Shown: positions 13,510 through 61,819, counted from the first letter of the stretch. The stretch: DNA of 64,000 bases from Acetomicrobium hydrogeniformans (GCA_016841745.1 JAENYO010000007.1:9408-73407); one strand, 5' to 3'. Made by a program: numbers and translations. The notes: generated by a model not told the origin, from the sequence alone.

Positions 13510-14169
13510 ATGGAAGGCTGGAGACTTTATGCCGGAGAAATGGTCACTACACAGATCTACTCCAGGGGGATATTGAACACTAACCTTCTTGAAGCCATGA
13601 AAAATATTCCAAGACATATGTTCGTTCCACTTGAATACCAGAGACTTTCCTATTCAGACTGTGCTGTACCCATAGGTTTGGATCAGACTATTTCACAGCC
13701 ATATATGGTGGCTAAAATGACAGACCTCCTGGTACCATCACCTGAAGAGGGAACAAAGATACTTGAGATCGGTACAGGGTCCGGTTACCAGGCGGCCGTC
13801 CTTTCAGAGATGGGAATGGTAGTGAACTCCATTGAGAGGATTGAAGAACTTGGGATCAGGGCACAGAAAGTTCTAAGGGAGCTTGGCTATTCCGCAAAGG
13901 TCCTGGTGTCTGATGGAAGAAACGGGTATGAACCAGATTCGCCCTATGACGGGATCATTGTTACCGCTGCTTCAGACAGGATAGAGGATGCATGGATGAA
14001 TCAGTTGGCCAATGGAGGAAGGATCGTCATACCTCTCAGGATAAAACCGGGTCTGGAACAGCTACTGGTAAGGGTAAAACGGGGTTCTCAATGTCAGGAT
14101 ACATGGTATGATTACTGTCAGTTCGTCCCGCTCTTAAAGGGAGTAATTGTTGATGATCCCTTTTCATAA
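13510..14169 (+). CDS. pcm: protein-L-isoaspartate O-methyltransferase
   Basis: QTISQPYMVA and the SAM motif ILEIGTGSGYQAAVL are present. 219 aa. RBS GAGGAG. Confidence 0.9.
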   Translation: MEGWRLYAGEMVTTQIYSRGILNTNLLEAMKNIPRHMFVPLEYQRLSYSDCAVPIGLDQTISQPYMVAKMTDLLVPSPEEGTKILEIGTGSGYQAAVLSEMGMVVNSIERIEELGIRAQKVLRELGYSAKVLVSDGRNGYEPDSPYDGIIVTAASDRIEDAWMNQLANGGRIVIPLRIKPGLEQLLVRVKRGSQCQDTWYDYCQFVPLLKGVIVDDPFS

Positions 14170-14203
14170 AAAGGGATCTCCGGGTATTGTTAATTATTGC
14201 TTA

Positions 14204-14233
14204 TTGACACAGAGTCCGGGCCCTTTGTATAAT
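14204..14233 (+). promoter_or_regulatory. sigma70-type promoter of the lysA leader
   Basis: TTGACA (14204-14209), an 18-nt spacer, then TATAAT (14228-14233). Confidence 0.5.
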
Positions 14234-14289
14234 AGCCCGCAATCTGGAACACTTTAAGATCTTTCTCGTTTGAATATTGTAAAGGCAAT

Positions 14290-14541
14290 GAAACGGGACG
14301 TCTTAGGACATAATCGTTGACAGAGAAGGATATCCACCGGCTGAAAAATATCCTCAACGAGATCTTAAGGCATAAAGCCCGCGGAGCTGGAGCTGAAAGA
14401 GATTATTCGAAGTAAGCTTCCCGGGTCAGGTCTCCGTAAAAGGGCTTATAAGCGGGATATTCGTAGAATGTCCAAGCAGGGTGGTACCGCGAGATCATAT
14501 ATCAGAGACTCGTCCCTACAGTGGGATGAGTCTCTTTTTTT
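14290..14541 (+). promoter_or_regulatory. T-box leader (tRNA-sensing riboswitch), predicted Lys (AAA) specifier
   Basis: Stem I elements are CAGAGAAGG and CCGGCTGAAA. The specifier loop is TCTTAAGGCATAAAG, with AAA at 14374-14376 followed by a purine. Also present are the box GAAGTAAG, the F-box-like CCGTAA, and the T-box AGGGTGGTACCGCGAG (14478-14493). The terminator GAGACTCGTCCC/GGGATGAGTCTC plus a T-run runs to 14541. Confidence 0.8.
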
Positions 14542-14591
14542 ATGTGATCAGGAAACAGGATTGAAAGATAAATCTGCCGGGAGGTATCTGG

Positions 14592-15881
14592 ATGAAAAGA
14601 AAAAATAATCTGATCTTTGGAGGATGGGATGTAGTCGATCTGGCTTCCCGTTTTGGGACTCCTCTCTATGTCCTTTCAGAGGATGCGATAAGGGACCGGT
14701 GCAGGGAGGTTCAGTCCTGTTTCCTGAAAAAGTATGAAAATACCCATGCTGTCTATGCCAGCAAGGCTTTTCTTACCCTTGCCATGTGTCGCATTCTTGA
14801 AACTGAGGGAATTGGGCTTGATGTTGTTTCGGGAGGAGAGATATACACGGCTGCAAAAGCAGGATTTTCCATGGAAAAACTGATTTTCCATGGAAATAAC
14901 AAATCACCTGATGAACTCAGGTTAGCCCTTGAAAAGGGTGTTGGCAGAATAGTAGTAGACAGTGAGAATGAATATGACATCCTCGAAGGGATAGCAGAAG
15001 AAGTGGAGAGTGAGGCAGATATCCTTTTTAGGGTTGCTCCTGGAGTGGATGCCCATACCCATAAATACATCGCTACGGGACACACCGCTTCCAAATTTGG
15101 CATGCCTGTACTGGGAGATGGAATAACAAGGATTGTCGAGAGGGCAATGACTTCCAGGTTCCTCCATCTCAAGGGGTTCCATTTTCATGTAGGTTCACAA
15201 CTGAAAGATAACATGTCTCATCTTATGGCAGTCAATGTCCTTCTGGATCTGATATCCAATGTCAGGGACAGGTCTGGTTTTCTGACTGAGGAACTTAATG
15301 TGGGAGGTGGTTTTGGAGTCCCCGAGTTACCTGGTGAAGATCCGGTAAAGCTTTCTGATTTTATAGATCCCGTAATGGAGAGGATCATCTCTGGGTGTGA
15401 AGATAGAGGTTTGAGAATACCCCAGACTATCATAGAACCTGGACGGTGGATAGTATCCGAAGCCGGTATTACCTTATATTCTATAGGTTTACTCAAGGAA
15501 ATTCCTGGCGTCATTACCTATGTTAGTGTAGACGGCGGGATGACTGATAACCCCAGGCCGGCACTCTATGGAGCGCTTTATCATGGGGTAGTGGCCAACA
15601 GAATGGATGAAAAAGCTTCCATGAAAGTGTCAGTTGTAGGAAAATGTTGTGAATCGGGGGATGTGCTGATCCGCGACCTTGAAATCCCTTCAATCAAACC
15701 CGGGGATATTCTGGCTGTTTTTAACACTGGAGCATATAATTTTTCCATGGCCAGTAATTATAATCGGAATCCCCGTCCGGGATTGATCCTGGTAAGTGAA
15801 GGAAAGGCTGATATCATAGTGGAAAGACAAACTTATGAAGATCTCCTTAGAGGAGAAACAATTCCTGAACATCTTAAATAA
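14592..15881 (+). CDS. lysA: diaminopimelate decarboxylase
   Basis: 429 aa. Fold-type III PLP decarboxylase motifs include YASKAF, HFHVGSQ, GGGFG and CESGD. RBS GGGAGG. Confidence 0.95.
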   Translation: MKRKNNLIFGGWDVVDLASRFGTPLYVLSEDAIRDRCREVQSCFLKKYENTHAVYASKAFLTLAMCRILETEGIGLDVVSGGEIYTAAKAGFSMEKLIFHGNNKSPDELRLALEKGVGRIVVDSENEYDILEGIAEEVESEADILFRVAPGVDAHTHKYIATGHTASKFGMPVLGDGITRIVERAMTSRFLHLKGFHFHVGSQLKDNMSHLMAVNVLLDLISNVRDRSGFLTEELNVGGGFGVPELPGEDPVKLSDFIDPVMERIISGCEDRGLRIPQTIIEPGRWIVSEAGITLYSIGLLKEIPGVITYVSVDGGMTDNPRPALYGALYHGVVANRMDEKASMKVSVVGKCCESGDVLIRDLEIPSIKPGDILAVFNTGAYNFSMASNYNRNPRPGLILVSEGKADIIVERQTYEDLLRGETIPEHLK

Positions 15882-15933
15882 TTTATCGAGCTTTAAATAT
15901 TTATTTAATTCAAAACAGGGGGGAAAAGAGATA

Positions 15934-17586
15934 ATGAGTGAAAAAACTAATCATCGTGTTATTGTTTTTTCTATGGCTGTCTGTATTGTTCTTGTTTTTG
16001 CGGGAATGTGTCTGGGAGCAGAAGGAGATATGCCGAATTTCGGGGTTCTCTCTTTACTGCCTCCACTTCTGGCAATAGGCCTGTGTATCATTACCAAGGA
16101 AGTGATACCTTCTCTTTTCGTCGGTATATGGGTTGCAGGGACCATGCTTGCAGGCTGGAACCCGATCCTGGGCTTTGGTAAAGCGGTAGAATCACTTTGG
16201 AACAGTCTTGGCGACCCATGGGGAGCCCGGATCGTACTTACAAGTCTTACCATGGGTGGACTTGTCGGTGTCATGAAGGTGGGGGGAGGTATTGATGCCG
16301 CAATACAGTGGATAACCGGAAGGGTCAAAAGTCCAAGGGGAGCCATGTTTTTCACAGAACTTGCAGGTTTTATAATTTTCTTTGAGGATTATGTCAACAC
16401 GGCAGTTGTAGGAACCACTATGTCACCTATTACTGACCGGTACAGGATATCAAAGGAAAAACTTTCCTATATAGTTGATACAACTGCAGCACCTATTGCA
16501 TGTATTGCCGGTATTTCTTCATGGATAGCCTATATGGTGGGACAGATAGGCAGCCAGTTCAATGAACTCGGTATAACTGTCTCTCCATACGTTACTTATC
16601 TGAAATCCATCCCCTTCGTTCTCTATAACATCGTGGCCCTTGTCCTTCTTACTTACGTCGTCTTTTCCCAGAGGGATTTTGGTCCCATGCTTACCGCTGA
16701 AAGACGGGCCAGGAAGACTGGTAAAGTCCTTCGTGACGGGGCCCAACCCCTTGTCAATACAAACGTGGAGGGAACTATTGCTGATAAGAATTGCCCCAGG
16801 AGAGGTATCAATTTTGTTCTTCCAATAGTATTTCTCGTTTCACTCATCTTCCTGATGCTTATCATTACCGGAGGGTGGCCAGAGGTACCTGTAGCCACAG
16901 CAATAGGCGAAGGCAGTAGCTCCAAGGCCCTTGTCTGGGGCGCCTTTGGTTCTGTATTTCTTACCATAGCTCTGTATGGTGTACAGGGGCTCGCTTCAAC
17001 CCAGAAACTGTTTAAGGGATATATGGAAGGCATGATGTCCATATTTGTTGGCACCATAATACTTGTCTTTGCCTGGGGGATAGGATCTTCCATAAAACAG
17101 GTGGGTACTGCGGCATACATTGTCAGCATTGCAGGAGATATCCTTTCTCCGGGTTGGATACCTGTTATAACCTTTATTACCGGAGCGATAATATCCTTCT
17201 GTACAGGTACATCCTACGGAACAATGGGTATCCTGATGCCCATTGTTGTGCCTCTGGTCTACAAGGTTTCCCAGGGTGCAGGTATAGACCCCATGATGTT
17301 CATGATCCCAACCATTGGAGCGGTCTTTGCTGGAGCTGTCTGGGGGGACCACTGCAGTCCCATTTCCGATACCACCATCATGTCTTCCATGTTCAGCGGA
17401 GCTGACCACATGGATCATGTAAACACCCAGATACCATATGCTCTTACTGCAGCAGCAGGTGCCCTCGTGGGATATATAGGGGTAGCAATGGGGCTCCCTG
17501 CAATTGCCAATATTGCCATATCAGCAGTTGTGGCCTGTTTTATCTTCAGGATCATATCCAGGCCTATCGAAGTTTCTGTACCCTGA
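15934..17586 (+). CDS. NhaC-family membrane transporter (LysW-like candidate lysine transporter)
   Basis: Polytopic membrane protein of the Na+/H+ antiporter NhaC type. It lies downstream of lysA in the same T-box-controlled unit. I chose the start at ATG 15934 after GGGGGGA; the ORF track starts at 15835, inside lysA. Confidence 0.75.
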   Translation: MSEKTNHRVIVFSMAVCIVLVFAGMCLGAEGDMPNFGVLSLLPPLLAIGLCIITKEVIPSLFVGIWVAGTMLAGWNPILGFGKAVESLWNSLGDPWGARIVLTSLTMGGLVGVMKVGGGIDAAIQWITGRVKSPRGAMFFTELAGFIIFFEDYVNTAVVGTTMSPITDRYRISKEKLSYIVDTTAAPIACIAGISSWIAYMVGQIGSQFNELGITVSPYVTYLKSIPFVLYNIVALVLLTYVVFSQRDFGPMLTAERRARKTGKVLRDGAQPLVNTNVEGTIADKNCPRRGINFVLPIVFLVSLIFLMLIITGGWPEVPVATAIGEGSSSKALVWGAFGSVFLTIALYGVQGLASTQKLFKGYMEGMMSIFVGTIILVFAWGIGSSIKQVGTAAYIVSIAGDILSPGWIPVITFITGAIISFCTGTSYGTMGILMPIVVPLVYKVSQGAGIDPMMFMIPTIGAVFAGAVWGDHCSPISDTTIMSSMFSGADHMDHVNTQIPYALTAAAGALVGYIGVAMGLPAIANIAISAVVACFIFRIISRPIEVSVP

Positions 17587-17649
17587 GAAGCTCATAAAAA
17601 TACAAAAGCCATTTTAACCGGGAGGCGTTTTTCCGCTTCCCGGTTCTTT

Positions 17650-18648
17650 CTATCCTCTCTGCAGTTTTAATATATCTTTTTCGATGCTGAGTATTTCCTG
17701 TTTCTGAAGGTCAGTAAGATTATCCATGACACTTTTTCTGAAGTCCATGGAATTTTCTTCCCTGTTTTTCTTCCTATCTGCTGTCAGTTCTGTCCAGCCT
17801 ATCTTTCTCCGGTTAAAATAAAGATCGAAGTCAACAAAGCGTTCCCCTTCTTCTGAATATTCAAGGCCCATGAGGGCTCTCTTAAGAACCTTTGGAGGAT
17901 AAAATGTAAGTATTTTCATGGTATAGACCCGAAGTGGCATCAGTATGTGTGCGTAATCCTTGCCCCACCCTTCTCCAATGGTCAGTCCCATCTCGCATGC
18001 TTCAAGGAAAAGCCTCAGGCGCCTGCAGTGAAGCAGATATCTTGAATAACTGTCATATATTCTTATTTCAACAAGATTCCATTCCTTTTCATTGAGACCT
18101 TCGTTAAAGTATGATACGGCTCGCCATTGGAGATGTCTTAAAAGAAGGTGAGGAGGCATGTTAATGTAGAGTATATCTTTGAAATGATCTTCCAGGTATA
18201 GATTCCTGTTAAGGGGTTTATCTGTGAAAAGAACGGCAATACCTTTATCCGAAGTATCATAAAGCAATTCATCAAGCTTACCCCGTACTCCGTTAAAATC
18301 GTTGCCGATCTGCTCAATAATTGGTTCAGGATTCCCGGTTACCCTGAAATGAATGGATCTGGGCAGGAGCCTTACAGTGATGTCTTCAGGAAGATCCGTG
18401 TGGCAATTGAACATGACCTGCATCATTTCTTCAGGAGACCTGTCTACGACAAAGGAGTAGTGGGAGTCCTCTGTTTTCCATGTGGTAGAAAGGAGAACAA
18501 CGGTCTGGTCGGGTTCTGACCTGTTCATGCTTTCCATGAGTCCATATTCCATTAAAGAGAAATTCTTCTTAAGCCATTCCGCAGTTGAGTCTATCTTGCT
18601 GGTCTTTAGAATAAGGCTTCTTGCTCCCTGACGAAGTAGAAAAAGCAA
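17650..18648 (-). CDS. hypothetical protein (332 aa), no family recognised
   Basis: Long ORF with a TTG start 8 nt after GGAG. It is convergent with the transporter gene and shares a hairpin at ~17616-17646. Coding-like composition. Confidence 0.5.
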   Translation of the reverse strand: MLFLLRQGARSLILKTSKIDSTAEWLKKNFSLMEYGLMESMNRSEPDQTVVLLSTTWKTEDSHYSFVVDRSPEEMMQVMFNCHTDLPEDITVRLLPRSIHFRVTGNPEPIIEQIGNDFNGVRGKLDELLYDTSDKGIAVLFTDKPLNRNLYLEDHFKDILYINMPPHLLLRHLQWRAVSYFNEGLNEKEWNLVEIRIYDSYSRYLLHCRRLRLFLEACEMGLTIGEGWGKDYAHILMPLRVYTMKILTFYPPKVLKRALMGLEYSEEGERFVDFDLYFNRRKIGWTELTADRKKNREENSMDFRKSVMDNLTDLQKQEILSIEKDILKLQRG

Positions 18649-18794
18649 GTCATCATCTCCTTGAGGTAATTATGTCATCGGGTATCGATTAAAACAACTG
18701 GATGTAAGATTTTTTCTTCCTGAACTTGATATAATTATCTTTCAGTTCTCCAGTGCACGTACATCCTAAACAGCATCTCAGGGAGTGAGACTTT

Positions 18795-19625
18795 ATGAAA
18801 TTCTGCAAAATACAGGGTAATGGAAATGACTTTATTGTGATAGAAAACTTTCAGTCCAGGCATACTTCTTCTCAGCTGTCAGAAATGGCCATGAAGATAT
18901 GCAGAAGACGTCAATCTCTTGGAGCTGACGGGATCCTGATCCTTGAAGGCTCTCAAAGGGCGGATTTTACCATGCGCCTTTTCAACAGCGACGGCTCCGA
19001 AGGAGAAATGTGCGGTAATGGAGCCAGGTGTATAGCCAGATATGCCTTTCAACAAGGAATAGCTCCGTCGGTAATGTCTTTTGAAACCCTCGCAGGAGTA
19101 ATGGGTGCAACGGTGGATGAACCTTATGTGACTCTCGATATGGGTCGGATAGATCTATCCGGGGCTGTATGGGAGGGGATAATTACAACCTGTAATGGCC
19201 GTGTAAAATATTCATTTCTCAATGTCGGTGTTCCCCATTGTGTTATTTGGACGGAAGATCTTAATGGCACTTCCAGGGAGTATCTTGTAACTCTTGGCCG
19301 ATCCATAAGGAATAACCAGGACCTCTTTCCCCAGGGTACGAATGTGAATTTTGCAGAACTCGCCGGTCCAGGAGATATTAATGTCACAACATATGAAAGA
19401 GGAGTGGAGGATCTTACAGAATCGTGTGGAACCGGTTCCACAGCAAGTGCTATAGTATCGTGTCATCTCTTTGGTTTAACCAGTCCCGTGAAAGTTCATA
19501 ATCCTGGTGGAATAAATGAAGTATTTCTCGATTTTCAGGCTGAAGAGAATTGCTGTAATGCCGGTCTGAAAGGGAAGACAGTTATCATAGCGAAGGGTGA
19601 TATCACACAGGAAGCCCTGGTGTGA
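18795..19625 (+). CDS. dapF: diaminopimelate epimerase
   Basis: N-terminal KIQGNGNDFIVIE, plus catalytic Cys motifs CGNGARC and SCGTGSTA. 276 aa. Confidence 0.9.
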   Translation: MKFCKIQGNGNDFIVIENFQSRHTSSQLSEMAMKICRRRQSLGADGILILEGSQRADFTMRLFNSDGSEGEMCGNGARCIARYAFQQGIAPSVMSFETLAGVMGATVDEPYVTLDMGRIDLSGAVWEGIITTCNGRVKYSFLNVGVPHCVIWTEDLNGTSREYLVTLGRSIRNNQDLFPQGTNVNFAELAGPGDINVTTYERGVEDLTESCGTGSTASAIVSCHLFGLTSPVKVHNPGGINEVFLDFQAEENCCNAGLKGKTVIIAKGDITQEALV

Positions 19626-19636
19626 TCCTTTAAAAG

Positions 19637-20098
19637 ATGCAGACCTTTTTGCCTTATGCTGATTTCAGAAGATCCGCTGCTGTACTTGATATAAAACGAC
19701 TTGGTAAACAGAGGGTTGAAGTTCTTCAGATCCTTAATTGTCTAGATCCCCTTTCTTCCCGTAAAGGCTGGAATAACCATCCTGCTGTAAAGATGTGGCG
19801 GGGTTATGAAACTGCCCTTATACTTTATGGTCTCGTTGTGTGTGATGCATGGATCAAAAAAGGATATAAAGACACATGTTACGAAAAAATATTATTAAAA
19901 CTTGGAACAGATATTTCCAGATCTGACCTTGAAAGATCATTCGTCAAAAGAAGTAGGTTTTTCCTTCCCTCATGGTTCGGCAATGAACCCTTTCATTCTT
20001 CCCATCGCTCGAATCTTCTTAGAAAAGACCCGGTCTGGTATGGTCAATTTGGATGGACCGAGCCTGATGATCTTCCATATCTATGGCCGGTGTCGTGA
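19637..20098 (+). CDS. conserved hypothetical protein (MQTFLPY...RLGKQRVE family)
   Basis: N-terminus MQTFLPYADFRRSAAVLDIKRLGKQRVEVLQIL and NHPAVKMWRGYE resemble a widespread small conserved family I recall only loosely. Function not asserted. Confidence 0.45.
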   Translation: MQTFLPYADFRRSAAVLDIKRLGKQRVEVLQILNCLDPLSSRKGWNNHPAVKMWRGYETALILYGLVVCDAWIKKGYKDTCYEKILLKLGTDISRSDLERSFVKRSRFFLPSWFGNEPFHSSHRSNLLRKDPVWYGQFGWTEPDDLPYLWPVS

Positions 20099-55639: not shown

Positions 55640-56734
55640 TTAAAAATCTATCCTTGAAAGGATATCGTCAATTTCCTGGAAGGTTATATTGAGGGGGGGG
55701 AGAAACCTTATCCCGCCACTGGTGACATTAAGAAGAACTTTTTCTTCGAAGGCTCTTTTTTTTACCATGTCCGGGTTTTCCGTACCGGCTCCTATCATGA
55801 GACCCCTTTCCCTTACCTCTGTTACCCATTTAAGTTTCGAAAGGCCCTCTGATAAATATTTACCCTTTCTCCGAACTTCCTCTAGAAAGACAGAGGTAAT
55901 TTTTGAAAGAAAAACCATGCCAGCTGATACTGCAATCGGGTTTGGTGCAAAGGTTGATCCGTGGTCTCCCATATCAAAAGGGGCAAAATTCAGAAAAATA
56001 GTTGCTCCAAGAGGCAGTCCCCCTCCAATAGACTTACCTATGGTAATAATATCGGGTTCCAGGCCATAACCCTGGTAGGAGAAATAGTTTCCTGTTCGTC
56101 CCAGTCCGGCCTGTATTTCGTCAGTAACAAGGATAAATCCCTTTTCTTTATGGAGTTCCATGACCGTTTGGGCAAGGTCATGGGGAATCGGAAGAACTCC
56201 GCTGTTACCCTGGATACACTCAAGAAAAAGGCCGGAAATAGTATTTTCTGATGCAAATTTACGTAAGGCATTTTCGTCAAGAGGAAGAAATACTGTATCG
56301 GGAAGAAGGGGTTCAAAGGGTAACCTGATCTTTTCACTATGGGTTATGGATAAAGCACCTGTGGTTCTCCCGTGGAAATTACCTTTAAAAGATACTATTT
56401 TCCCCTTCTTCCTGCACTTTTTTATGGCCTTTAATGCGGCTTCCGTTGCTTCAGTTCCGGAGTTTGAAAAATATACACAACCCTGCCCTCCGCTGAAATT
56501 CAGAAGGGTCTGAGCCATTACTGGAACCTCAGGATCGAGAAAGTAGTTTGAAAGGTGAGCATATTTCCTCACCTTGGAAACTATTGCCTCTACTACTTCA
56601 GGGTATGAGTGTCCCAGGTTCATTACACCAATACCGGCAAAGGTATCGAGAAATATTCCTTTATCGGTATGGATCCGTATTCCCTCGGCTTTTTCCACGG
56701 TAAGATCATAGGGAGAGTATATCTTTGCCTCCAT
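55640..56734 (-). CDS. class III PLP aminotransferase (ArgD-like; candidate N-acetyl-LL-DAP aminotransferase)
   Basis: Motifs SGTEATEAALK, DEIQAGLGRTG and TFAPNP are present. It is the last gene of the dap operon, with a TAATG overlap with lysC. Confidence 0.75.
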   Translation of the reverse strand: MEAKIYSPYDLTVEKAEGIRIHTDKGIFLDTFAGIGVMNLGHSYPEVVEAIVSKVRKYAHLSNYFLDPEVPVMAQTLLNFSGGQGCVYFSNSGTEATEAALKAIKKCRKKGKIVSFKGNFHGRTTGALSITHSEKIRLPFEPLLPDTVFLPLDENALRKFASENTISGLFLECIQGNSGVLPIPHDLAQTVMELHKEKGFILVTDEIQAGLGRTGNYFSYQGYGLEPDIITIGKSIGGGLPLGATIFLNFAPFDMGDHGSTFAPNPIAVSAGMVFLSKITSVFLEEVRRKGKYLSEGLSKLKWVTEVRERGLMIGAGTENPDMVKKRAFEEKVLLNVTSGGIRFLPPLNITFQEIDDILSRIDF

Positions 56735-57948
56735 TAATCTGCCTCCAGTAAACCGAATTCTTCTGCAAGAACTTTCACTGCTTTTTCTGATTCATCCTTA
56801 TGAAGCAGAACGGATATTTTGATTTCCGAGGTAGTAGTGGCAAGCATTTTTATTTTATCTTTACTGAGGGCTCCGAAAAACCTGCCAGCTACGCCCGGTG
56901 TTGACTGCATCCCAACTCCTACTACGGCTAGTTTGACGACATCCTCATTTGTACCGAATTTCCATCCTTCTATACCTTTAAGGGTCTCATTGAGAGTTTT
57001 TCGGACAATTTCATAGTTTCCGGAAATAAAGGTGAAGGTCAGGTGAGAATGCCCGTTATCGTTGACTGCCGATATCATATCCACATTAACCTCATTCGCA
57101 GCAAGATCGATAAATATTCGGCTGATAAGGCCAGTATCGTTGGGAATATTACTCAGAGTCACCTTCATCTGGTTGGGGTCAGTTGTTATTCCTGTAACAA
57201 CGGGTTGCTCGAGCCATTCGGGTATATTGTTCACCAGGTAAGTCCCCCTTTCTTCTGAAAATGTTGATGCACAATACGTTTTCACGGAATACTTCTTCGC
57301 GATCTCAACTGCCCGGGAATGGAGGACTCTGGCTCCGGATGAGGCCAGTTCCAGCATTTCATCATAGGTTATATATTCAAGTTTTCGAGCTGAGTGCTCA
57401 ACCCGGGGGTCACAGCTGTATACTCCAGCCACATCACTGTAAATTTCGCATGAAGTGCCCATTTTTGCCGCAATTGCTACAGCCGAGGTATCAGATCCCC
57501 CCCTGCCTAGAGTTGTTATCTGACCTTCGTCAGTAATACCCTGAAATCCGGTTACTACTACAACGTCGTGTGTTTCAAGTTCCCGTTGTAACTTTGAGAG
57601 CTTAAGATCCTTGATCCTGGCGTTATTATGGGTTTTAGTAGTAACCATCTCAAGTTGAAAAGCATTGTAGGATATGGCAGGGACTCCAGTCCCGTTCAGA
57701 GCCATTGATAAAAGAGAAGCAGAAACCTGCTCTCCAGTGGATAGCAGCATATCCATCTCTCTTTCCTTGGGGTTTCCCGATATGGAATATGCAAGATCGA
57801 TCAGCTGATTAGTTGACTCACCCATTGCTGATACAACAACTACAAGCTTTTCTCCCTGTTGAACCCTTACTTTTATCTTTTCAGCTATATTCCGGATCTT
57901 TTCAGGAGTTGCCATGGAAGATCCGCCATACTTCTGGACAATCAACAA
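56734..57948 (-). CDS. lysC: aspartate kinase
   Basis: N-terminal IVQKYGGSS, TLGRGGSD and C-terminal ACT repeats. 404 aa. Confidence 0.9.
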   Translation of the reverse strand: MLIVQKYGGSSMATPEKIRNIAEKIKVRVQQGEKLVVVVSAMGESTNQLIDLAYSISGNPKEREMDMLLSTGEQVSASLLSMALNGTGVPAISYNAFQLEMVTTKTHNNARIKDLKLSKLQRELETHDVVVVTGFQGITDEGQITTLGRGGSDTSAVAIAAKMGTSCEIYSDVAGVYSCDPRVEHSARKLEYITYDEMLELASSGARVLHSRAVEIAKKYSVKTYCASTFSEERGTYLVNNIPEWLEQPVVTGITTDPNQMKVTLSNIPNDTGLISRIFIDLAANEVNVDMISAVNDNGHSHLTFTFISGNYEIVRKTLNETLKGIEGWKFGTNEDVVKLAVVGVGMQSTPGVAGRFFGALSKDKIKMLATTTSEIKISVLLHKDESEKAVKVLAEEFGLLEAD

Positions 57949-58010
57949 GAACCACCTCTTGGTCTGTTTGCTGGAGGCCCTATTCGACCTCCAGCGCAGC
58001 GATATGGAGA

Positions 58011-58709
58011 TTAAAGATTTCTAAGGTCTTTGACTATCTGTGTTTTATCTGAAGTCTTTGCGTCGACCTCTTTGATCACTTTGGCCGGTGATCCAGCTAC
58101 CACACTGTATTCCGGAACATCTTTTGTTACGATGGCTCCAGCAGCAACAACAGAACCCTTTTTGACTCTGACACCCTCAAGTATCACCGCATTGGCACCA
58201 ACGAGAACATTATCTTCTATTACCACAGGCTGAGCGCTGGGAGGCTCTATTACTCCTGCCACAACAGCACCGGCACCTATGTGACAGTTGCGGCCTATCA
58301 TGGCTCTACCGCCCAGGACGGCATTCATGTCGATCATGGTGCCTTCCCCTATGACACTGCCGATATTTATAACTGCCCCCATCATTATCACAGCACCCTT
58401 ACCTATTTCCACCATATCTCTTATGATCGCGCCTGGCTCAATGCGGGCCTCATATTTAGTCAGATCGGCAAGGGGAAGAGCTGAATTTCTGGCCTGTACC
58501 TGGATGTCCACTTTATCGATGGAATCAGAAAATCTTTCTAGAAGGAATACGATTTTCTGGTAATCTCCGGTCAGGAGTCCGAATGTCTCCGTACCCATAA
58601 AATCCAGTCCATCCCAGTCTATCTCTTTGAGGTTCCCCTGTATGAATACCCTTGCGGATGTCTTTTTTTCTGCTTGACTTATCATTCTGATTATTTCTTC
58701 AGCTCGCAC
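58011..58709 (-). CDS. dapH: tetrahydrodipicolinate N-acetyltransferase (DapH-type hexapeptide transferase)
   Basis: 232 aa. The N-terminal domain resembles B. subtilis DapH, followed by left-handed beta-helix hexapeptide repeats. GTG start. Confidence 0.8.
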
Positions 58710-59341
58710 GAAAGAACCTCCTCAAAAGAATAGAATCCCCTTTTTCTCTGGCTTACGAATTCTGCAGCCTTAAGTGCTCCAAGGGCAAAAACCCTTCTGG
58801 AGAGAGCCCTGTGAGTGAATTCAATAACCTCACCCTCATTGGCAAAAAGAACAGAGTGATCTCCAGGGATCCCCCCAAGTCTGAGGGAAGAAATGCTGCA
58901 ATCTCTGCCTGTTGCATCTTTGAGGAGAATAGCTGTTCCTGAAGGCGCATCCTTCTTCATTATATGGTGACTCTCTGTCATTTCCATGTCCCAATTCTCC
59001 AGGTAAGTGGAATATTCCCGAAGGATCATCTTTAAAATATTGATCCCCATGGAAAAATTGAAGCTCTGAACCACTGAAACGGTTTTTCCCAGTTCCCTCA
59101 GCATCCCAAGTTGTTCTCCGGAAAGGGCAGTGGTGCCAATGACCAGTCCTGAATGGTTTTCGCGGCATAATTCAATTGTTCTCGGTGTGACAGCGCAGGA
59201 TGAAAAATCCACAATAACATCGGGTGAGCTGTCCAGCCACTCTTTTTCTTTGTCCAATGTCAGGCTGAGCATATGGTTTCTAAAAACAGACTGAATTTCA
59301 AGTCCCATCCTTCCCGATGAGCCTATGAGACCGTATTTCAC
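58691..59341 (-). CDS. dapB: 4-hydroxy-tetrahydrodipicolinate reductase
   Basis: [10 protein letters not shown] dinucleotide motif and [15 protein letters not shown] signature. I chose the start at GTG 59341, which overlaps the dapA stop as GTGA. Confidence 0.85.
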
Positions 59342-60222
59342 TTTGTAACACCACACTCGGTCATGGCCGCTTCGATCTTTTCCATGGCTGTTCCTGATGC
59401 AGGAACAAGGGGGAGTCTCAGTATATTTTCACAGAATCCAAGACGGCTCACTGCATATTTGACAGGGATAGGATTTGTTTCAACAAAAAGATCTCTCATG
59501 AGCGGGAAGAGATCCATATGCAGTTCTCTTCCTCTTGTAATATCACCTTCAAGGGTCGCGTTTATCATTGCGGAAGTTTCAGCGGGCATAACGTTTGAAA
59601 GGACTGATATTACTCCGTCACCTCCACTGCAGACCAGGTGGAATGCCTGATCGTCATTTCCTGAAAAAATCCGGAAATCAGGTCTGGTCTTTCTGATCTT
59701 CCGTATCAGGAGATCTACCTGGATCATGTCCCCGGAGGCTTCCTTTACTGCGACGATATTATCGATCTCGGAACATCTGACCACTGTATCCGGAAGTATA
59801 TTACTACCGGTTCTTCCTGGTACGTTATAAATGATGAGAGGGCCCTTTATGTTTTCTGCTACTGCTCTGTAATGCTGGAAAAGGCCTTCCTGGGTGGGCT
59901 TATTGTAATAGGGAGTGACTACCAGTACTCCATCTGCACCCAGGTCCAGTGCCTGTCCGGACATTTCGATAGTATGGTTTGTCGAATTAGATCCAGTTCC
60001 CACTATTATGGGAACTCTTTTTCTGGCTGTCTTTACTGCAAAGGAGATGATATCCGCTCTCTCTGAAGTGGTAATGGTGGGAGCTTCGCCTGTCGTACCA
60101 AGAACGATAAGTGCATTTACACCATTCCCGATCTGGAAATTAATGAATCTCTCCATGTTTTCAAAGTCAACTTCTGTCCCCTTAAAGGGAGTTACGATAG
60201 CAGTTCCTGTTCCTCTGAACAT
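59338..60222 (-). CDS. dapA: 4-hydroxy-tetrahydrodipicolinate synthase
   Basis: [21 protein letters not shown] and the active-site KEAS region. 294 aa. Confidence 0.9.
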
Positions 60223-60276
60223 TGATTGTTCCTCCTTTTCTCGATTTAACCAATAATCTTTTGATGGAACATTTAT

Positions 60277-61251
60277 CTAAGCAGGGTTATTGAGACGAAG
60301 ATGTTCTTTGAGTATCCTGACTGCATTAGTAGCTGCACCTACTCTTATGTTATCAGCAATATTCCACATCAGGAACCTCCTGTTGTCAAATGTTCTTACC
60401 CTTGATACGTAGGTCAGATCTGTTCCCGCTACCTCCAGAGGAGTTATCATTTCTTCGGAAAGAACAACATCTTCACTATTTCTTAAGGCCTCATGTATTT
60501 CCTCAAGTTCAAAGGGGTCACGGGTTTCTACAAAGATCGATTCTGAATGTCCATATTCGACGGGAACCCTTATAGTAGTAGGCCATATTGAAATGTTACC
60601 GTCATCAAGTATCTTGCGTGTTTCATCTACCATTTTCATTTCTTCAGTACTGAAACCATCAGCCATGATATCTCCTATCTGCGGGACAAGGTTTCTATGG
60701 ATCTGCTTAATGAATGCAGACGATTCTATGTTGCCTTTTTCCTGAAATTCCAGTTCAATTATGCCCTTTCTTCCCGCTCCGGAAACTGCCTGATAGGTGC
60801 TTACGACAATTGTTCTTATACCGAATCTTTCATGGATCCTGTAAAGTGAAAGGACCATCTGTATGGTGGAGCAGTTTGGATTTGCAACAATCCCCCTGTA
60901 TCCCCTTAGCAGATTCCCGTTTATTTCAGGAACTACCAGGGGAACATCCTGATCCATTCTAAAAGCAGAGGAATTGTCGATCACTACAGACCCGGCTTTC
61001 GCTGCAATCGGTGCGAATCTCCTTGATGCTGATCCTCCGGCTGAAAACAGCACATAGTCAAACCCTTCCTTCAGGATTTCTTCCGTCAATTCCTTAACCC
61101 TGTAATTCTTGCCATTAAAGAGGATTTCCTTCCCTTCAGAACGGGCTGAGGCCAGAAAAGCTATTTGCGAAGGGAGGATCCCCATCTCCTGAAGAACCTG
61201 CGACATCATTCTACCCACTTCTCCCGTTGCACCTGCCACTGCTATTCTCAT
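60277..61251 (-). CDS. asd: aspartate-semialdehyde dehydrogenase
   Basis: MRIAVAGATGEVG, the NPNCSTI active site and the SGAG motif. 324 aa. Confidence 0.9.
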   Translation of the reverse strand: MRIAVAGATGEVGRMMSQVLQEMGILPSQIAFLASARSEGKEILFNGKNYRVKELTEEILKEGFDYVLFSAGGSASRRFAPIAAKAGSVVIDNSSAFRMDQDVPLVVPEINGNLLRGYRGIVANPNCSTIQMVLSLYRIHERFGIRTIVVSTYQAVSGAGRKGIIELEFQEKGNIESSAFIKQIHRNLVPQIGDIMADGFSTEEMKMVDETRKILDDGNISIWPTTIRVPVEYGHSESIFVETRDPFELEEIHEALRNSEDVVLSEEMITPLEVAGTDLTYVSRVRTFDNRRFLMWNIADNIRVGAATNAVRILKEHLRLNNPA

Positions 61252-61271: not shown

Positions 61272-61552
61272 AAAAATAAAGACCCGTCCCTGTGAAGGGA
61301 CGAGTCTGGATAAACTCGCGGTACCACCCGACTTGAATTTCTGAAGAACCAGAAATTCCGCTTTGAGCCCTTTAACGGAGGCTGAACCGGGATCTTACTT
61401 CAGGAGTTTTGAATCCCTTTCAGAACCAGCTCCACAGGTTTTGGGCCTTCAGATAACATCGGGGACCCCTTTCAGCCGGTGAGTATCCCTCTCTGTCGAT
61501 GTTTACAACCTTTCAAGCGCCCTGCTTCTTCGCTTTTCCTATTATTATTACT
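61272..61552 (-). promoter_or_regulatory. T-box leader, promoter-distal copy (adjacent to asd), predicted Lys (AAA) specifier
   Basis: On the minus strand: CAGAGAGGG, CCGGCUGAAA, and specifier loop UCUGAAGGCCCAAAA with AAA at 61442-61440 plus a purine. Also GAAGUAAG, F-box CCGUUA and T-box GGGUGGUACCGCG (61329-61317). The terminator is AGACUCGUCCC/GGGACGGGUCU plus a U-run. Confidence 0.8.
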
Positions 61553-61819
61553 AAAAAAAGGCCCGTCCCTGTGAAGGGACGAGCCTGGATAAACTCGCGG
61601 TACCACCCGACTTGAATTTCTGAAAAACCAGAAATTCCGCTTTGAGCCCTTTAACGGAGGCTGAACCGGGATCTTACTCAGGGAGTTTGAAATCCCTTTC
61701 AGAACCAGCTCCACAGGTTTTAGGCCTTCAGATAACATCGGGGACCCCTTTCAGCCGGTGAGCATCCCTCTCTGTCGATGTTTACAACCTTTCAAGCGCC
61801 CTGCTTCTTCGCTTTTGGT
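61281..61819 (-). repeat. direct tandem duplication (2 x ~260 nt, 279-nt period) comprising the two T-box leaders
   Basis: Manual alignment of 61281-61539 with 61560-61818 shows about seven differences, including a compensatory pair in the terminator stem. Confidence 0.85.

What the first reader, a model, noticed from the sequence alone, without database searches (positions are those of the whole stretch)
14204..17586. Third Lys T-box controls lysA plus an NhaC/LysW-like transporter, defining a tRNA-Lys regulon
- **Third leader:** a T-box leader (14290-14541) sits behind a TTGACA-18-TATAAT promoter, upstream of lysA and a co-directional NhaC-family transporter.
- **Specifier:** aligned position by position with the asd leaders, the specifier-loop region is ATCT.AAGGC..AAA(R)CC.G.GGAGCTGG. 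AAA followed by G or A is invariant in all three.
- **tRNA fit:** the T-box bulge UGGU would pair with an ACCA 3' end, which needs discriminator base A. E. coli tRNA-Lys has A at this position, from memory; this organism's tRNA-Lys is not in the window.
- **Transporter:** NhaC-type LysW was previously proposed as a lysine transporter purely from L-box co-regulation. Finding it behind a Lys T-box is independent support.
- **Exclusion:** dapF (18795) has no such leader.
Basis: partly seen in the sequence, partly recalled or inferred. Interest (0 to 1): 0.7.

Follow-up and report, generated by a model that had tools for sequence, protein, structure and literature searches.

The report
Lysine tRNA-sensing leader before lysA operon
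A standard tRNA-sensing RNA switch (a T-box) of the rare lysine type sits in front of the last lysine-biosynthesis gene and an uncharacterised membrane transporter in a Synergistota bacterium, so this group apparently controls lysine supply by sensing uncharged lysine tRNA, not with the usual lysine riboswitch.

Summary
Window 14279-14541 (+) is a complete transcriptional T-box leader (Rfam RF00230, 78 bits, E 4e-17, below this release's gathering score of 93). A perfect TTGACA-18-TATAAT promoter precedes it and a strong terminator ends it.

**Operon:** lysA (14592-15881) and a 550-aa NhaC-superfamily transporter (15934-17586).

**Specifier:** AAA at 14374-14376, followed by a purine. Across 14 distinct related leaders the aligned triplet is AAA 12 times and AAG twice, both Lys codons. 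All 14 have a UGGU bulge. Covariation supports the canonical fold.

**Regulon:** the same leader type, as a tandem pair, precedes asd-dapA-dapB-dapD-lysC in this window. It also precedes lysA-transporter(-dapF) in Dethiosulfovibrio, Aminobacterium and Pyramidobacter. No lysine riboswitch is present.

**Transporter:**
- It is only 34% identical to a genuine riboswitch-controlled LysW from Vibrio. It belongs to the same branch but is not an ortholog.
- Its neighbours across phyla (LysA, DapF, DAP dehydrogenase) all use diaminopimelate (DAP). DAP import is therefore a serious rival to lysine import.

**Verdict:** a new member of a known kind, moderately interesting. The response to tRNA-Lys and the transporter's substrate are both untested.

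The parts
14204..14233 (+). Sigma-70-type promoter, TTGACA-18-TATAAT
   Evidence: 12/12 consensus match, the only perfect one in 13900-18900. Equivalent TTGACA/TATAAT promoters precede the orthologous leaders in L035 and L037.
14279..14541 (+). Complete T-box leader RNA (Stem I, Stem II, IIA/B pseudoknot, Stem III, antiterminator/terminator)
   Evidence: RF00230 full-length match 14279-14520, 78 bits, E 4.4e-17. On 11 homologous leaders the canonical structure has 88.7% of cells paired, against 34-50% when partners are slid, and 31 of 64 pairs show compensatory changes.
14285..14387 (+). Stem I. GA/K-turn motif at the base. Basal helix CGGG 14294-14297 pairs with CCCG 14378-14381. AG bulge ACAGAGA at 14320-14326. 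Distal loop at 14334-14347.
   Evidence: Rfam alignment. Invariant GA, AGAGA and GGCUGA columns. Compensatory pairs in every Stem I helix.
14374..14377 (+). Specifier AAA (Lys) plus the conserved 3' purine G
   Evidence: Positions 2-4 from the end of the specifier bulge, the TBDB rule (PMC7778990). The triplet is AAA in all 12 metagenome matches to a pattern that left it free. In register it is AAA 12 times and AAG twice across 14 distinct leaders. Coordinates checked.
14478..14517 (+). Antiterminator carrying the T-box sequence AGGGUGGUACCGCG (14478-14491) and the tRNA-acceptor-binding bulge UGGU (14482-14485)
   Evidence: Exact T-box core. Invariant in all 14 leaders. The canonical antiterminator structure has -7.5 kcal/mol, and the minimum-energy fold of that segment -10.0 kcal/mol.
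14504..14541 (+). Intrinsic terminator (13-bp stem, then a T-run) that overlaps the 3' half of the antiterminator
   Evidence: Terminator scan. -24.3 kcal/mol. Compensatory changes at two stem positions among the homologs.
14592..15881 (+). lysA, diaminopimelate decarboxylase (RBS GGGAGG at 14579-14584)
   Evidence: TIGR01048 equivalog 448.6 bits, cut-off 297.9. Pfam PF02784 + PF00278.
15934..17586 (+). 550-aa NhaC-superfamily (Tet(35)/LysW-like long form) transporter, second gene of the operon. Predicted importer of lysine or diaminopimelate.
   Evidence: PF03553, E 1e-51. No NCBIfam equivalog reached. 52-nt gap after lysA with no terminator. 34% identity to an L-box-regulated Vibrio LysW. 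Conserved next to lysA, dapF or ddh.
17616..17645 (+). Intrinsic-terminator-like hairpin that ends the lysA-transporter operon
   Evidence: 12-bp stem with 8 GC pairs.
61293..61818 (-). Tandem pair of Lys T-box leaders (61572-61818 and 61293-61539), each with its own terminator
   Evidence: RF00230 62.4 and 62.0 bits, E about 1e-12. The two copies are 95% identical to each other and 71% to the lysA leader. Specifier AAA+A in both.
55640..61251 (-). asd-dapA-dapB-dapD(acetyltransferase)-lysC-aminotransferase operon downstream of the tandem leaders. This is the other half of the window's Lys T-box regulon.
   Evidence: tblastn gives 60-71% identity to the L024 proteins. Those proteins pass the NCBIfam equivalog cut-offs for asd, dapA, dapB, DapD_Ac and aspartate kinase.
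18795..19625 (+). dapF, context only. It is not behind a leader in this window and is separated from the operon by an inserted opposite-strand ORF (17650-18648).
   Evidence: TIGR00652 231.5 bits. No RNA-family hit upstream. In L035 and L037 dapF directly follows the transporter.

Best explanation
This is a canonical transcription-attenuating T-box riboswitch specific for tRNA-Lys.

**Mechanism.**
1. Transcription starts about 7 nt after the -10 box at 14233 and produces a leader of roughly 300 nt.
2. By default the strong terminator (14504-14541) forms and transcription stops before lysA.
3. When lysine is scarce, uncharged tRNA-Lys binds Stem I. Its anticodon pairs with the AAA specifier (14374-14376), and its elbow stacks on the platform formed by the AG bulge and the distal loop.
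4. The free 3' end of the tRNA (ACCA) pairs with the UGGU bulge (14482-14485). This stabilises the otherwise weak antiterminator.
5. RNA polymerase then reads through into lysA and the transporter gene.

**Regulon.** A tandem pair of the same leader type controls asd-dapA-dapB-dapD-lysC-aminotransferase. Together they form a tRNA-Lys-sensing lysine regulon. In this Synergistota lineage it takes the place that the lysine riboswitch holds in Firmicutes and Gammaproteobacteria.

**Transporter.** It is induced together with lysA under lysine starvation, so it is most likely an importer that helps restore lysine. It could take up lysine itself (about 0.5) or diaminopimelate (DAP), the substrate of LysA (about 0.3).

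**Shown versus inferred.**
- Shown: sequence and structure membership, conservation of the specifier, gene content, and terminator/antiterminator energetics.
- Inferred: the actual response to tRNA-Lys charging, and the transporter's substrate and direction.
For: **T-box identity.**
- Full-length RF00230 match, E 4e-17.
- It is one of only three RNA-family matches in the window.
- The promoter and terminator are in place.
- The terminator is worth -24.3 kcal/mol, against -7.5 to -10 for the antiterminator.

**Fold.**
- 88.7% of cells are paired, against 34-50% for the slid controls.
- 31 pairs show compensatory changes.
- 0 of 500 shuffles reach the observed covariation score.

**Specifier.**
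- All 12 metagenome hits have AAA where the search pattern left the triplet free.
- In register the triplet is AAA 12 times and AAG twice across 14 leaders. The AAG cases (Dethiosulfovibrio, Pyramidobacter) are a synonymous Lys change.
- All 14 have a purine after the triplet and a UGGU bulge.
- No other frame gives one consistent amino acid.

**Targets.**
- lysA is confirmed.
- asd, dapA, dapB, dapD and lysC are confirmed.
- The same leader precedes lysA-transporter(-dapF) in L001, L002, Dethiosulfovibrio, Aminobacterium and Pyramidobacter.
- No lysine riboswitch is in the window, nor upstream of any close transporter homolog examined.

**Precedent.** A Lys T-box (B. cereus lysK) responds to uncharged tRNA-Lys in vivo (PMC2916919).
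Against: - The score is below this Rfam release's gathering threshold (78 against 93 bits).
- The 5' side of the specifier loop lacks the usual AGUA S-turn element. A short, nearly invariant helix (GYCU/AAGGC) seems to sit there instead, and only one-sided changes support it.
- No tRNA-Lys gene from this organism or a relative was available. Anticodon and discriminator matching therefore rest on general knowledge that bacterial tRNA-Lys carries A73.
- In Dethiosulfovibrio and Pyramidobacter one base of the basal helix is unpaired. A strict count from the end of the bulge would then read AGG (Arg), not AAG.
- No expression or binding data exist.
- The B. cereus Lys T-box is partly induced by tRNA-Asn as well (PMC2916919), so exclusive specificity cannot be assumed.
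Confidence: 0.85

Rival explanations
1. The leader works as described, but the transporter imports diaminopimelate (LL- or meso-DAP, for example from peptidoglycan debris), not lysine. On this reading lysA-transporter(-dapF) is a DAP-salvage operon. Under lysine starvation the cell takes up DAP, DapF epimerises it and LysA decarboxylates it to lysine.
For: **Every enzyme found next to close homologs uses DAP:**
- LysA and/or DapF in seven Synergistota lineages.
- DapF alone in L011, L014, L016, L020 and L009.
- DAP dehydrogenase plus DapF, behind a sigma-54 activator and followed by a D-aminopeptidase, in Firmicutes MAGs L043 and L012.

A dehydrogenase-plus-epimerase pair is not needed for biosynthesis, which suggests use of imported DAP.

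In addition, LysW is no closer to this clade than to other subfamilies.
Against: - Placing transporters for the end product in the same regulon as its biosynthesis is the common pattern, as with LysW, LysP and YvsH behind lysine riboswitches (PMC5584792).
- lysA and dapF are also simply lysine-biosynthesis genes.
- In Thermovirgaceae the transporter has no DAP gene nearby, only a GntR/FCD regulator.
- No NhaC-family DAP transporter is described in the papers searched.
Confidence: 0.3
2. The transporter is a generic Na+/H+ antiporter or other ion/pH-homeostasis protein, as its annotation says. It is co-transcribed with lysA for reasons unrelated to amino-acid transport.
For: Databases call it 'Na+/H+ antiporter NhaC family protein'. 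It matches PF03553.
Against: - The match to the true NhaC equivalog model is weak and partial (45 bits, cut-off 370).
- NhaC-superfamily members include an arginine/ornithine antiporter model, transporters controlled by Tyr T-boxes (PMC2494555) and LysW controlled by the L-box.
- Linkage to lysA, dapF or ddh is conserved across two phyla.
Confidence: 0.1
3. The leader is a T-box that responds to a different or additional tRNA: tRNA-Asn cross-induction as in B. cereus lysK, or an alternative specifier frame.
For: - The B. cereus Lys T-box is partly induced by reduced charging of tRNA-Asn (PMC2916919).
- TBDB reports that thousands of leaders have ambiguous frames.
- The +1 frame reads AGG in two genera.
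Against: - Only the aligned frame gives one amino acid in all 14 leaders.
- In the window both the 0 and +1 frames read Lys (AAA, AAG), and the -1 frame is UAA.
- Every identified biosynthetic target gene is a lysine-pathway gene.
Confidence: 0.05
4. The leader is a decayed, non-functional T-box relic, which is why it scores below the Rfam gathering threshold.
For: 78 bits against a gathering score of 93. The specifier-loop 5' side is atypical.
Against: - All functional modules are intact.
- The leader is conserved with compensatory changes across genera whose LysA proteins are only 54-65% identical.
- The whole subfamily scores 62-78 bits, so the low score is a lineage trait and not decay.
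Confidence: 0.03

Closest known systems
T-box leader family (Rfam RF00230), transcriptional class, e.g. B. subtilis tyrS and glyQS
   Same: Full architecture: GA/K-turn motif, specifier loop with codon plus purine, AG bulge and distal loop, Stem II, IIA/B pseudoknot, Stem III, the conserved AGGGUGGUACCGCG sequence with a UGGN bulge, and mutually exclusive antiterminator and terminator.
   Different: The host is a Synergistota bacterium. The subfamily scores below the current gathering threshold. The 5' side of the specifier loop lacks the AGUA S-turn element.
Lys-specific T-box of Bacillus cereus lysK (PMC2916919)
   Same: A T-box with a Lys specifier. The B. cereus element is shown to be induced by uncharged tRNA-Lys, so lysine T-boxes can work.
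   Different: That element controls a second lysyl-tRNA synthetase, and Lys T-boxes on LysRS were found in only four species. The one here controls lysine biosynthesis and transport operons. I did not compare the two sequences.
Lysine riboswitch (L-box, RF00168) regulon
   Same: The same target set: lysC, asd, dapA, lysA and NhaC-type or other lysine transporters (PMC5584792). The logic is also the same: transcription is switched on when lysine is short.
   Different: The L-box binds lysine directly, whereas this element senses tRNA-Lys charging. No L-box is present in the window or upstream of the close transporter homologs examined.
LysW, the NhaC-superfamily candidate lysine transporter defined by L-box co-regulation (verified example here: Vibrio sp. 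HDW18, L039)
   Same: - Long-form (about 530-550 aa) NhaC/Tet(35)-like protein.
- Aligns over 497 residues, E 2e-77.
- Same NCBIfam hit profile.
- Member of a lysine-responsive regulon.
   Different: Only 34% identical. LysW is equally distant (33-36%) from the other subgroups, so the two are not orthologs. The control element is a T-box, not an L-box.
NhaC-family transporters behind Tyr T-boxes in Firmicutes (Wels et al. 2008, PMC2494555)
   Same: An NhaC-superfamily transporter placed under a T-box, with the specifier used to predict its amino-acid substrate.
   Different: The specifier there is Tyr. That survey lists Lys T-boxes only for an MFS transporter, a permease and lysS, not for NhaC or lysA.

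Membership tests
T-box leader (RF00230) | Statistically significant full-length match to the family covariance model | tested here: met
   Model positions 1-219 matched, 78 bits, E 4.4e-17. E is 3.5e-15 over the whole window.
T-box leader (RF00230) | Score at or above Rfam's curated gathering threshold (an operational cut-off, not a biological feature) | tested here: not met
   78 bits against 93. The whole Synergistota Lys subfamily scores 62-78 bits.
T-box leader (RF00230) | Stem I with a basal GA/K-turn motif, AG bulge and distal loop (the tRNA-elbow platform) | tested here: met
   GA on both strands, ACAGAGA and GGCUGAAA are invariant or nearly so in 11 leaders. The Stem I helices are 80-92% paired with compensatory changes.
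T-box leader (RF00230) | Specifier loop that presents a codon followed by a purine next to the basal helix | tested here: met
   AAA+G at 14374-14377, directly 5' of CCCG, which pairs with CGGG. AAR plus a purine in all 14 leaders.
T-box leader (RF00230) | S-turn (AGUA/GAA) motif in the specifier loop | tested here: inconclusive
   The asd leaders keep a GAA on the 3' side, but the 5' AGUA is absent. A GYCU/AAGGC helix with only one-sided changes is possible instead.
T-box leader (RF00230) | Conserved T-box sequence forming an antiterminator with a 7-nt bulge that contains UGGN | tested here: met
   AGGGUGGUACCGCG at 14478-14491. The antiterminator helices are 95-100% paired.
T-box leader (RF00230) | A competing, more stable intrinsic terminator that shares the 3' strand of the antiterminator | tested here: met
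   Terminator at 14504-14535 plus a T-run. -24.3 against -7.5 to -10 kcal/mol.
T-box leader (RF00230) | Binding of the cognate uncharged tRNA and charge-dependent read-through | not testable with these tools
   This needs in vitro transcription or in vivo reporter assays. No tRNA genes were found in the window or in 34 loci.
Lys-specific T-box | The specifier is a lysine codon, and UGGN matches the tRNA-Lys discriminator | tested here: inconclusive
   The codon part is met (AAA/AAG). UGGU implies A73, which fits bacterial tRNA-Lys from general knowledge, but the host tRNA was not available.
LysW (L-box-regulated NhaC-type lysine transporter) | A lysine riboswitch immediately upstream | tested here: not met
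   No RF00168 hit in the window or upstream of the homologs. The positive control, Vibrio L039, scored 122.5 bits.
LysW (L-box-regulated NhaC-type lysine transporter) | Orthology to L-box-linked LysW proteins | tested here: not met
   34% identity to the Vibrio LysW. LysW is equidistant from all the subgroups sampled. The shared superfamily branch is confirmed.
LysW (L-box-regulated NhaC-type lysine transporter) | Lysine transport activity | not testable with these tools
   To my knowledge LysW itself has never been assayed.
NhaC Na+/H+ antiporter (TIGR00931 equivalog) | Score above the equivalog cut-off | tested here: not met
   45.1 bits, partial, against a cut-off of 370.

The most novel reading that the evidence does not exclude
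The 550-aa NhaC-superfamily protein is a dedicated diaminopimelate (DAP) importer.

In Synergistota, lysA-transporter(-dapF) would then be a DAP-salvage module switched on by uncharged tRNA-Lys. It would turn peptidoglycan-derived DAP from the environment into lysine.

In Firmicutes the same transporter would feed a sigma-54-controlled DAP dehydrogenase and epimerase for catabolism.

No dedicated secondary DAP transporter turned up in the papers I could search.
Probability: 0.3. Interest if true: 0.55.

Novelty: new member of a known kind. Interest (0 to 1): 0.4.

Why it matters
**Rarity.** Lys-specifier T-boxes are among the rarest classes (TBDB, PMC7778990). The documented ones control a spare lysyl-tRNA synthetase or permeases.

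**What is new here.** An entire lysine biosynthesis regulon is wired to tRNA-Lys charging in several Synergistota genera. It comprises asd-dapABD-lysC, lysA and at least two kinds of transporter, and no lysine riboswitch is present. This shows one regulatory RNA class taking over the job that another class does in other phyla.

**Practical consequences.**
- The current Rfam gathering threshold silently misses this whole subfamily, so automated annotation will leave these operons looking unregulated.
- An uncharacterised subfamily, annotated only as 'Na+/H+ antiporter', now has a concrete and testable substrate prediction (lysine or diaminopimelate). The prediction rests on regulation plus cross-phylum gene context.

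Tried and rejected
- **Default Rfam scan of the window:** zero hits. This is a threshold artefact, not absence.
- **Lysine riboswitch search:** none in the window or upstream of the transporter homologs. I therefore rejected the idea that this clade is the L-box LysW.
- **nhmmer profile of the leaders:** it found only the known subfamily and missed a 110-bit T-box in L012. It cannot be used to exclude other T-boxes. I used core-motif searches with mismatches instead.
- **tRNA search:** no tRNA in the window or in 34 loci, so the discriminator and anticodon could not be checked.
- **Hypothesis that the 233-aa ORF upstream of the transporter in Thermovirgaceae is DapD:** rejected. It is a GntR/FCD regulator.
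- **Papers not held:** Vitreschak 2008, Rodionov 2003 and Gutierrez-Preciado 2009. I could not check whether a Lys T-box on lysA or dap genes was tabulated there. TBDB entries could not be queried.
- **Full-text searches for a T-box on lysA or dap genes, or for T-boxes in Synergistetes lysine genes:** nothing relevant.
- **Solved structures:** no homolog of the transporter in the PDB.
- **Alkaliphilus homolog P0047:** not on record for a context look-up. In the supplementary table of PMC5584792 the only L-box entry seen for that genome is asd.
- **Alternative specifier candidates:** GGC inside the conserved AAGGC is not conserved in Dethiosulfovibrio, Aminobacterium or Pyramidobacter. The -1 frame reads UAA or CAA.

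Full report
**1. The observation**

The region reads as the first-stage reader described it.
- A perfect TTGACA-18-TATAAT promoter lies at 14204-14233. It is the only 12/12 match in the 5 kb scanned.
- The Rfam T-box model RF00230 matches 14279-14520 over its full length (positions 1-219) at 78 bits. E is 4.4e-17 for the local search and 3.5e-15 for the whole window.
- The default scan at gathering threshold returned nothing for the whole window, because this Rfam release sets the T-box cut-off at 93 bits. The two asd leaders (61293-61539 and 61572-61818, minus strand) score 62 bits each. They are missed for the same reason.
- These three are the only RNA-family matches in the 64 kb at E<=0.001. 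There is no lysine riboswitch.

**2. Anatomy of the leader**

All canonical modules are present.

| Module | Coordinates / sequence | Evidence |
|---|---|---|
| GA/K-turn motif | base of Stem I | |
| Basal helix | CGGG 14294-14297 with CCCG 14378-14381 | |
| AG bulge | ACAGAGA, 14320-14326 | |
| Distal loop | 14334-14347, with the conserved GGCUGAAA | |
| Stem II, IIA/B pseudoknot, Stem III | between Stem I and the T-box sequence | |
| T-box sequence | AGGGUGGUACCGCG, 14478-14491 | |
| Acceptor-binding bulge | UGGU, 14482-14485 | |
| Terminator | 13-bp stem 14504-14535 plus T-run | |

- The terminator shares its 5' strand with the 3' strand of the antiterminator.
- The terminator is worth -24.3 kcal/mol. 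The canonical antiterminator is worth only -7.5, and the best fold of that segment -10.0. The default state is therefore 'off', as in studied T-boxes.
- The lysA ribosome-binding site (GGGAGG, 14579-14584) lies downstream of the terminator. The control is therefore transcriptional.

**3. Covariation**

- I collected 11 distinct homologous leaders: three from the window, two from related MAGs and six from metagenome contigs.
- RNAalifold recovers the T-box helices on its own, and 32 of its 64 predicted pairs show compensatory changes.
- For an explicitly written canonical structure, including the pseudoknot and the antiterminator, 88.7% of cells pair. With slid partners the figure is 34-50%.
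- 31 pairs have double changes, and 0 of 500 shuffles reach the observed covariation score.
- This is a conserved, selected structure and not a relic.

**4. Specifier**

[quoted passage not shown] That gives AAA at 14374-14376, followed by the purine G.
- If the bulge is taken to end one base later, the reading becomes AAG, which is also Lys. The -1 frame is UAA.
- A metagenome scan used a pattern that left the triplet free (AAGGC NN NNN R CC...GAGCTGG...GGTGGTACCGCG). All 12 hits had AAA.
- The orthologous lysA leaders of Dethiosulfovibrio (75 bits), Aminobacterium (74 bits) and Pyramidobacter do not match that pattern, so they are independent samples. They carry AAG, AAA and AAG respectively in the aligned register.
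- Across 14 distinct leaders the count is AAA 12 times and AAG twice. A purine always follows, and the bulge is always UGGU.
- The AAA-to-AAG change is synonymous. No other frame gives a single amino acid in all leaders: the +1 frame reads AGG in two, and the -1 frame reads UAA or CAA.
- UGGU requires discriminator base A. That fits bacterial tRNA-Lys from general knowledge, but no tRNA gene was available to check it.

**5. What the leaders control**

- In the window, the single leader precedes lysA (TIGR01048, 448.6 bits against a cut-off of 297.9) and a PF03553 transporter.
- The transporter most likely starts at the ATG at 15934, behind a GGGGGG ribosome-binding site. That is 52 nt after the lysA stop, with no terminator in between. 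A hairpin at 17616-17645 ends the operon.
- The tandem leaders precede asd-dapA-dapB-dapD(acetyltransferase)-lysC-aminotransferase at 61251-55640.

Elsewhere, the same leader type precedes:
- asd-dapA-dapB-dapD-lysC (L024);
- dapA-dapB-dapD-lysC (L030, L033);
- a LivJ-type periplasmic binding protein (L026);
- lysA-transporter in L001, L002 and Pyramidobacter;
- lysA-transporter-dapF in Dethiosulfovibrio and Aminobacterium.

The 'tRNA-Lys regulon' is therefore real, and it is a property of several Synergistota genera. The window itself is from a Synergistales bacterium. Its closest relative is MAG OY762654.1, whose transporter is 96% identical.

**6. dapF**

- In Dethiosulfovibrio and Aminobacterium, dapF follows the transporter directly in the same direction. 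In Aminobacterium no terminator-like site lies between them.
- The window lineage has an extra opposite-strand ORF (17650-18648, no Pfam match) inserted between the two genes.
- The exclusion of dapF therefore looks like a secondary change in this lineage.

**7. The transporter**

- It matches no NCBIfam equivalog. Its best hit is the Tet(35) model, far below cut-off, and its match to the true NhaC model is weak and partial.
- To test the 'LysW' link I needed a real LysW. The Vibrio sp. HDW18 homolog (L039) has a lysine riboswitch immediately upstream (RF00168, 122.5 bits).
- The window protein aligns with that LysW over 497 residues at 34% identity, E 2e-77. The two have the same family-hit profile.
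- However, LysW is equally distant (33-36%) from every subgroup sampled.
- No close homolog of the window protein has an L-box.
- For Alkaliphilus metalliredigens, which encodes a 70%-identical homolog, the only L-box entry seen in the published list is asd (PMC5584792 supplement).
- The protein is therefore LysW-like at the branch level, but it is a separate subfamily.

**8. Gene context of the transporter subfamily**

| Lineages | Context |
|---|---|
| Seven Synergistota lineages | lysA upstream, often dapF downstream |
| Synergistaceae / Aminiphilus (L011, L014, L016, L020) | transporter-dapF behind a conserved promoter with AnTCAT-N5-ATGAnT palindromes, no T-box |
| Firmicutes MAGs (L012, L043) | sigma-54 activator, DAP dehydrogenase, DapF, transporter; D-aminopeptidase next in L043 |
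| L009 | dapF-transporter among fermentation genes |
| Thermovirgaceae | GntR/FCD regulator only |
| 45%-identity group (L045, L046) | saccharopine-dehydrogenase-like, class-III aminotransferase and aldehyde:ferredoxin oxidoreductase genes |

- LysA, DapF and Ddh all act on diaminopimelate (DAP).
- Induction under lysine starvation argues for an importer.
- The context fits lysine, but it fits DAP at least as well. I put lysine at about 0.5, DAP at about 0.3, and other substrates at the rest.

**9. Comparison with what is known**

- T-boxes are a well-known family, and this one behaves like a standard transcriptional member.
- Lys specifiers are among the least common (PMC7778990).
- Lys T-boxes on LysRS genes were found in only four species, and the B. 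cereus lysK element is experimentally functional (PMC2916919).
- Wels et al. list Lys T-boxes for an MFS transporter, a permease and lysS. They list NhaC transporters only behind Tyr T-boxes (PMC2494555).
- I found no paper in the held library that reports a T-box on lysA or dap genes.

**10. Verdict**

This is a new member of a known kind: a lysine-biosynthesis regulon run by rare Lys T-boxes in Synergistota, plus a functional prediction for an uncharacterised transporter subfamily. Interest is moderate (0.4). The DAP-importer reading is the most novel option that the evidence leaves open.

Noticed in passing
window 61293-61818 (-): The asd operon is preceded by two complete Lys T-box leaders in tandem. 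They are 95% identical to each other and each has its own terminator. This looks like a recent duplication, and it should make induction steeper than for the single lysA leader.
   Followed up: partly
L042 1994-2091 (Pyramidobacter) and L035 3566-3636 (Dethiosulfovibrio): After the full T-box and its terminator comes a second module made only of the T-box sequence/antiterminator and a terminator, with no Stem I (nhmmer 23.6 and 47.1 bits; exact GGGTGGTACCGCG in L042). It may be the remnant of a tandem T-box, or a Stem-I-less acceptor-end sensor.
   Followed up: no
L011, L014, L016, L020, about 100-300 nt upstream of the transporter gene: In Synergistaceae/Aminiphilus MAGs the orthologous transporter-dapF pair has no T-box. 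It has a conserved TTGACG-17-TACAAT promoter that overlaps a palindrome AATCAT-N5-ATGATT, with a second copy (ACTCAT-N5-ATGAGT) about 190 nt upstream. This looks like an operator for an unidentified DNA-binding regulator.
   Followed up: no
L043 2122-6701 and L012 1958-7596: Firmicutes MAGs carry a cluster of sigma-54 activator, DAP dehydrogenase, DAP epimerase and NhaC-type transporter. In L043 a D-aminopeptidase (M55) and an M24 peptidase follow. This looks like a possible diaminopimelate/peptidoglycan-peptide utilisation operon.
   Followed up: partly
L026 391-689 (-) and 1-371 (-): A Lys T-box of the same subfamily precedes a LivJ-type periplasmic binding protein (Peripla_BP_6). This would be a candidate lysine ABC uptake system in the same regulon. 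The contig ends inside the gene.
   Followed up: partly
window 14298-14303 with 14367-14371, and the homologous columns of alignment A2: In this subfamily the usual AGUA S-turn element on the 5' side of the specifier loop is missing. A short, nearly invariant helix (GYCU with AAGGC) may replace it, leaving a small 2 x 6-nt specifier loop. Only one-sided (G-C to G-U) changes support the helix. This deviation probably explains the sub-threshold Rfam scores.
   Followed up: partly
window 17650-18648 (-): A 332-aa ORF with no Pfam or NCBIfam match sits on the opposite strand between the transporter and dapF. In other Synergistota genera those two genes are adjacent.
   Followed up: no
window 19637-20098 (+): A pyrimidine-dimer DNA glycosylase homolog (PF03013, Pyr_excise) lies directly after dapF.
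   Followed up: no
L012 12866-13087 (-) and 7864-7935 (-): A canonical T-box (110 bits) that appears unlinked to the transporter (different strand, about 5 kb beyond its 3' end), and a group II intron D1-D4 fragment just downstream of the transporter gene.
   Followed up: no
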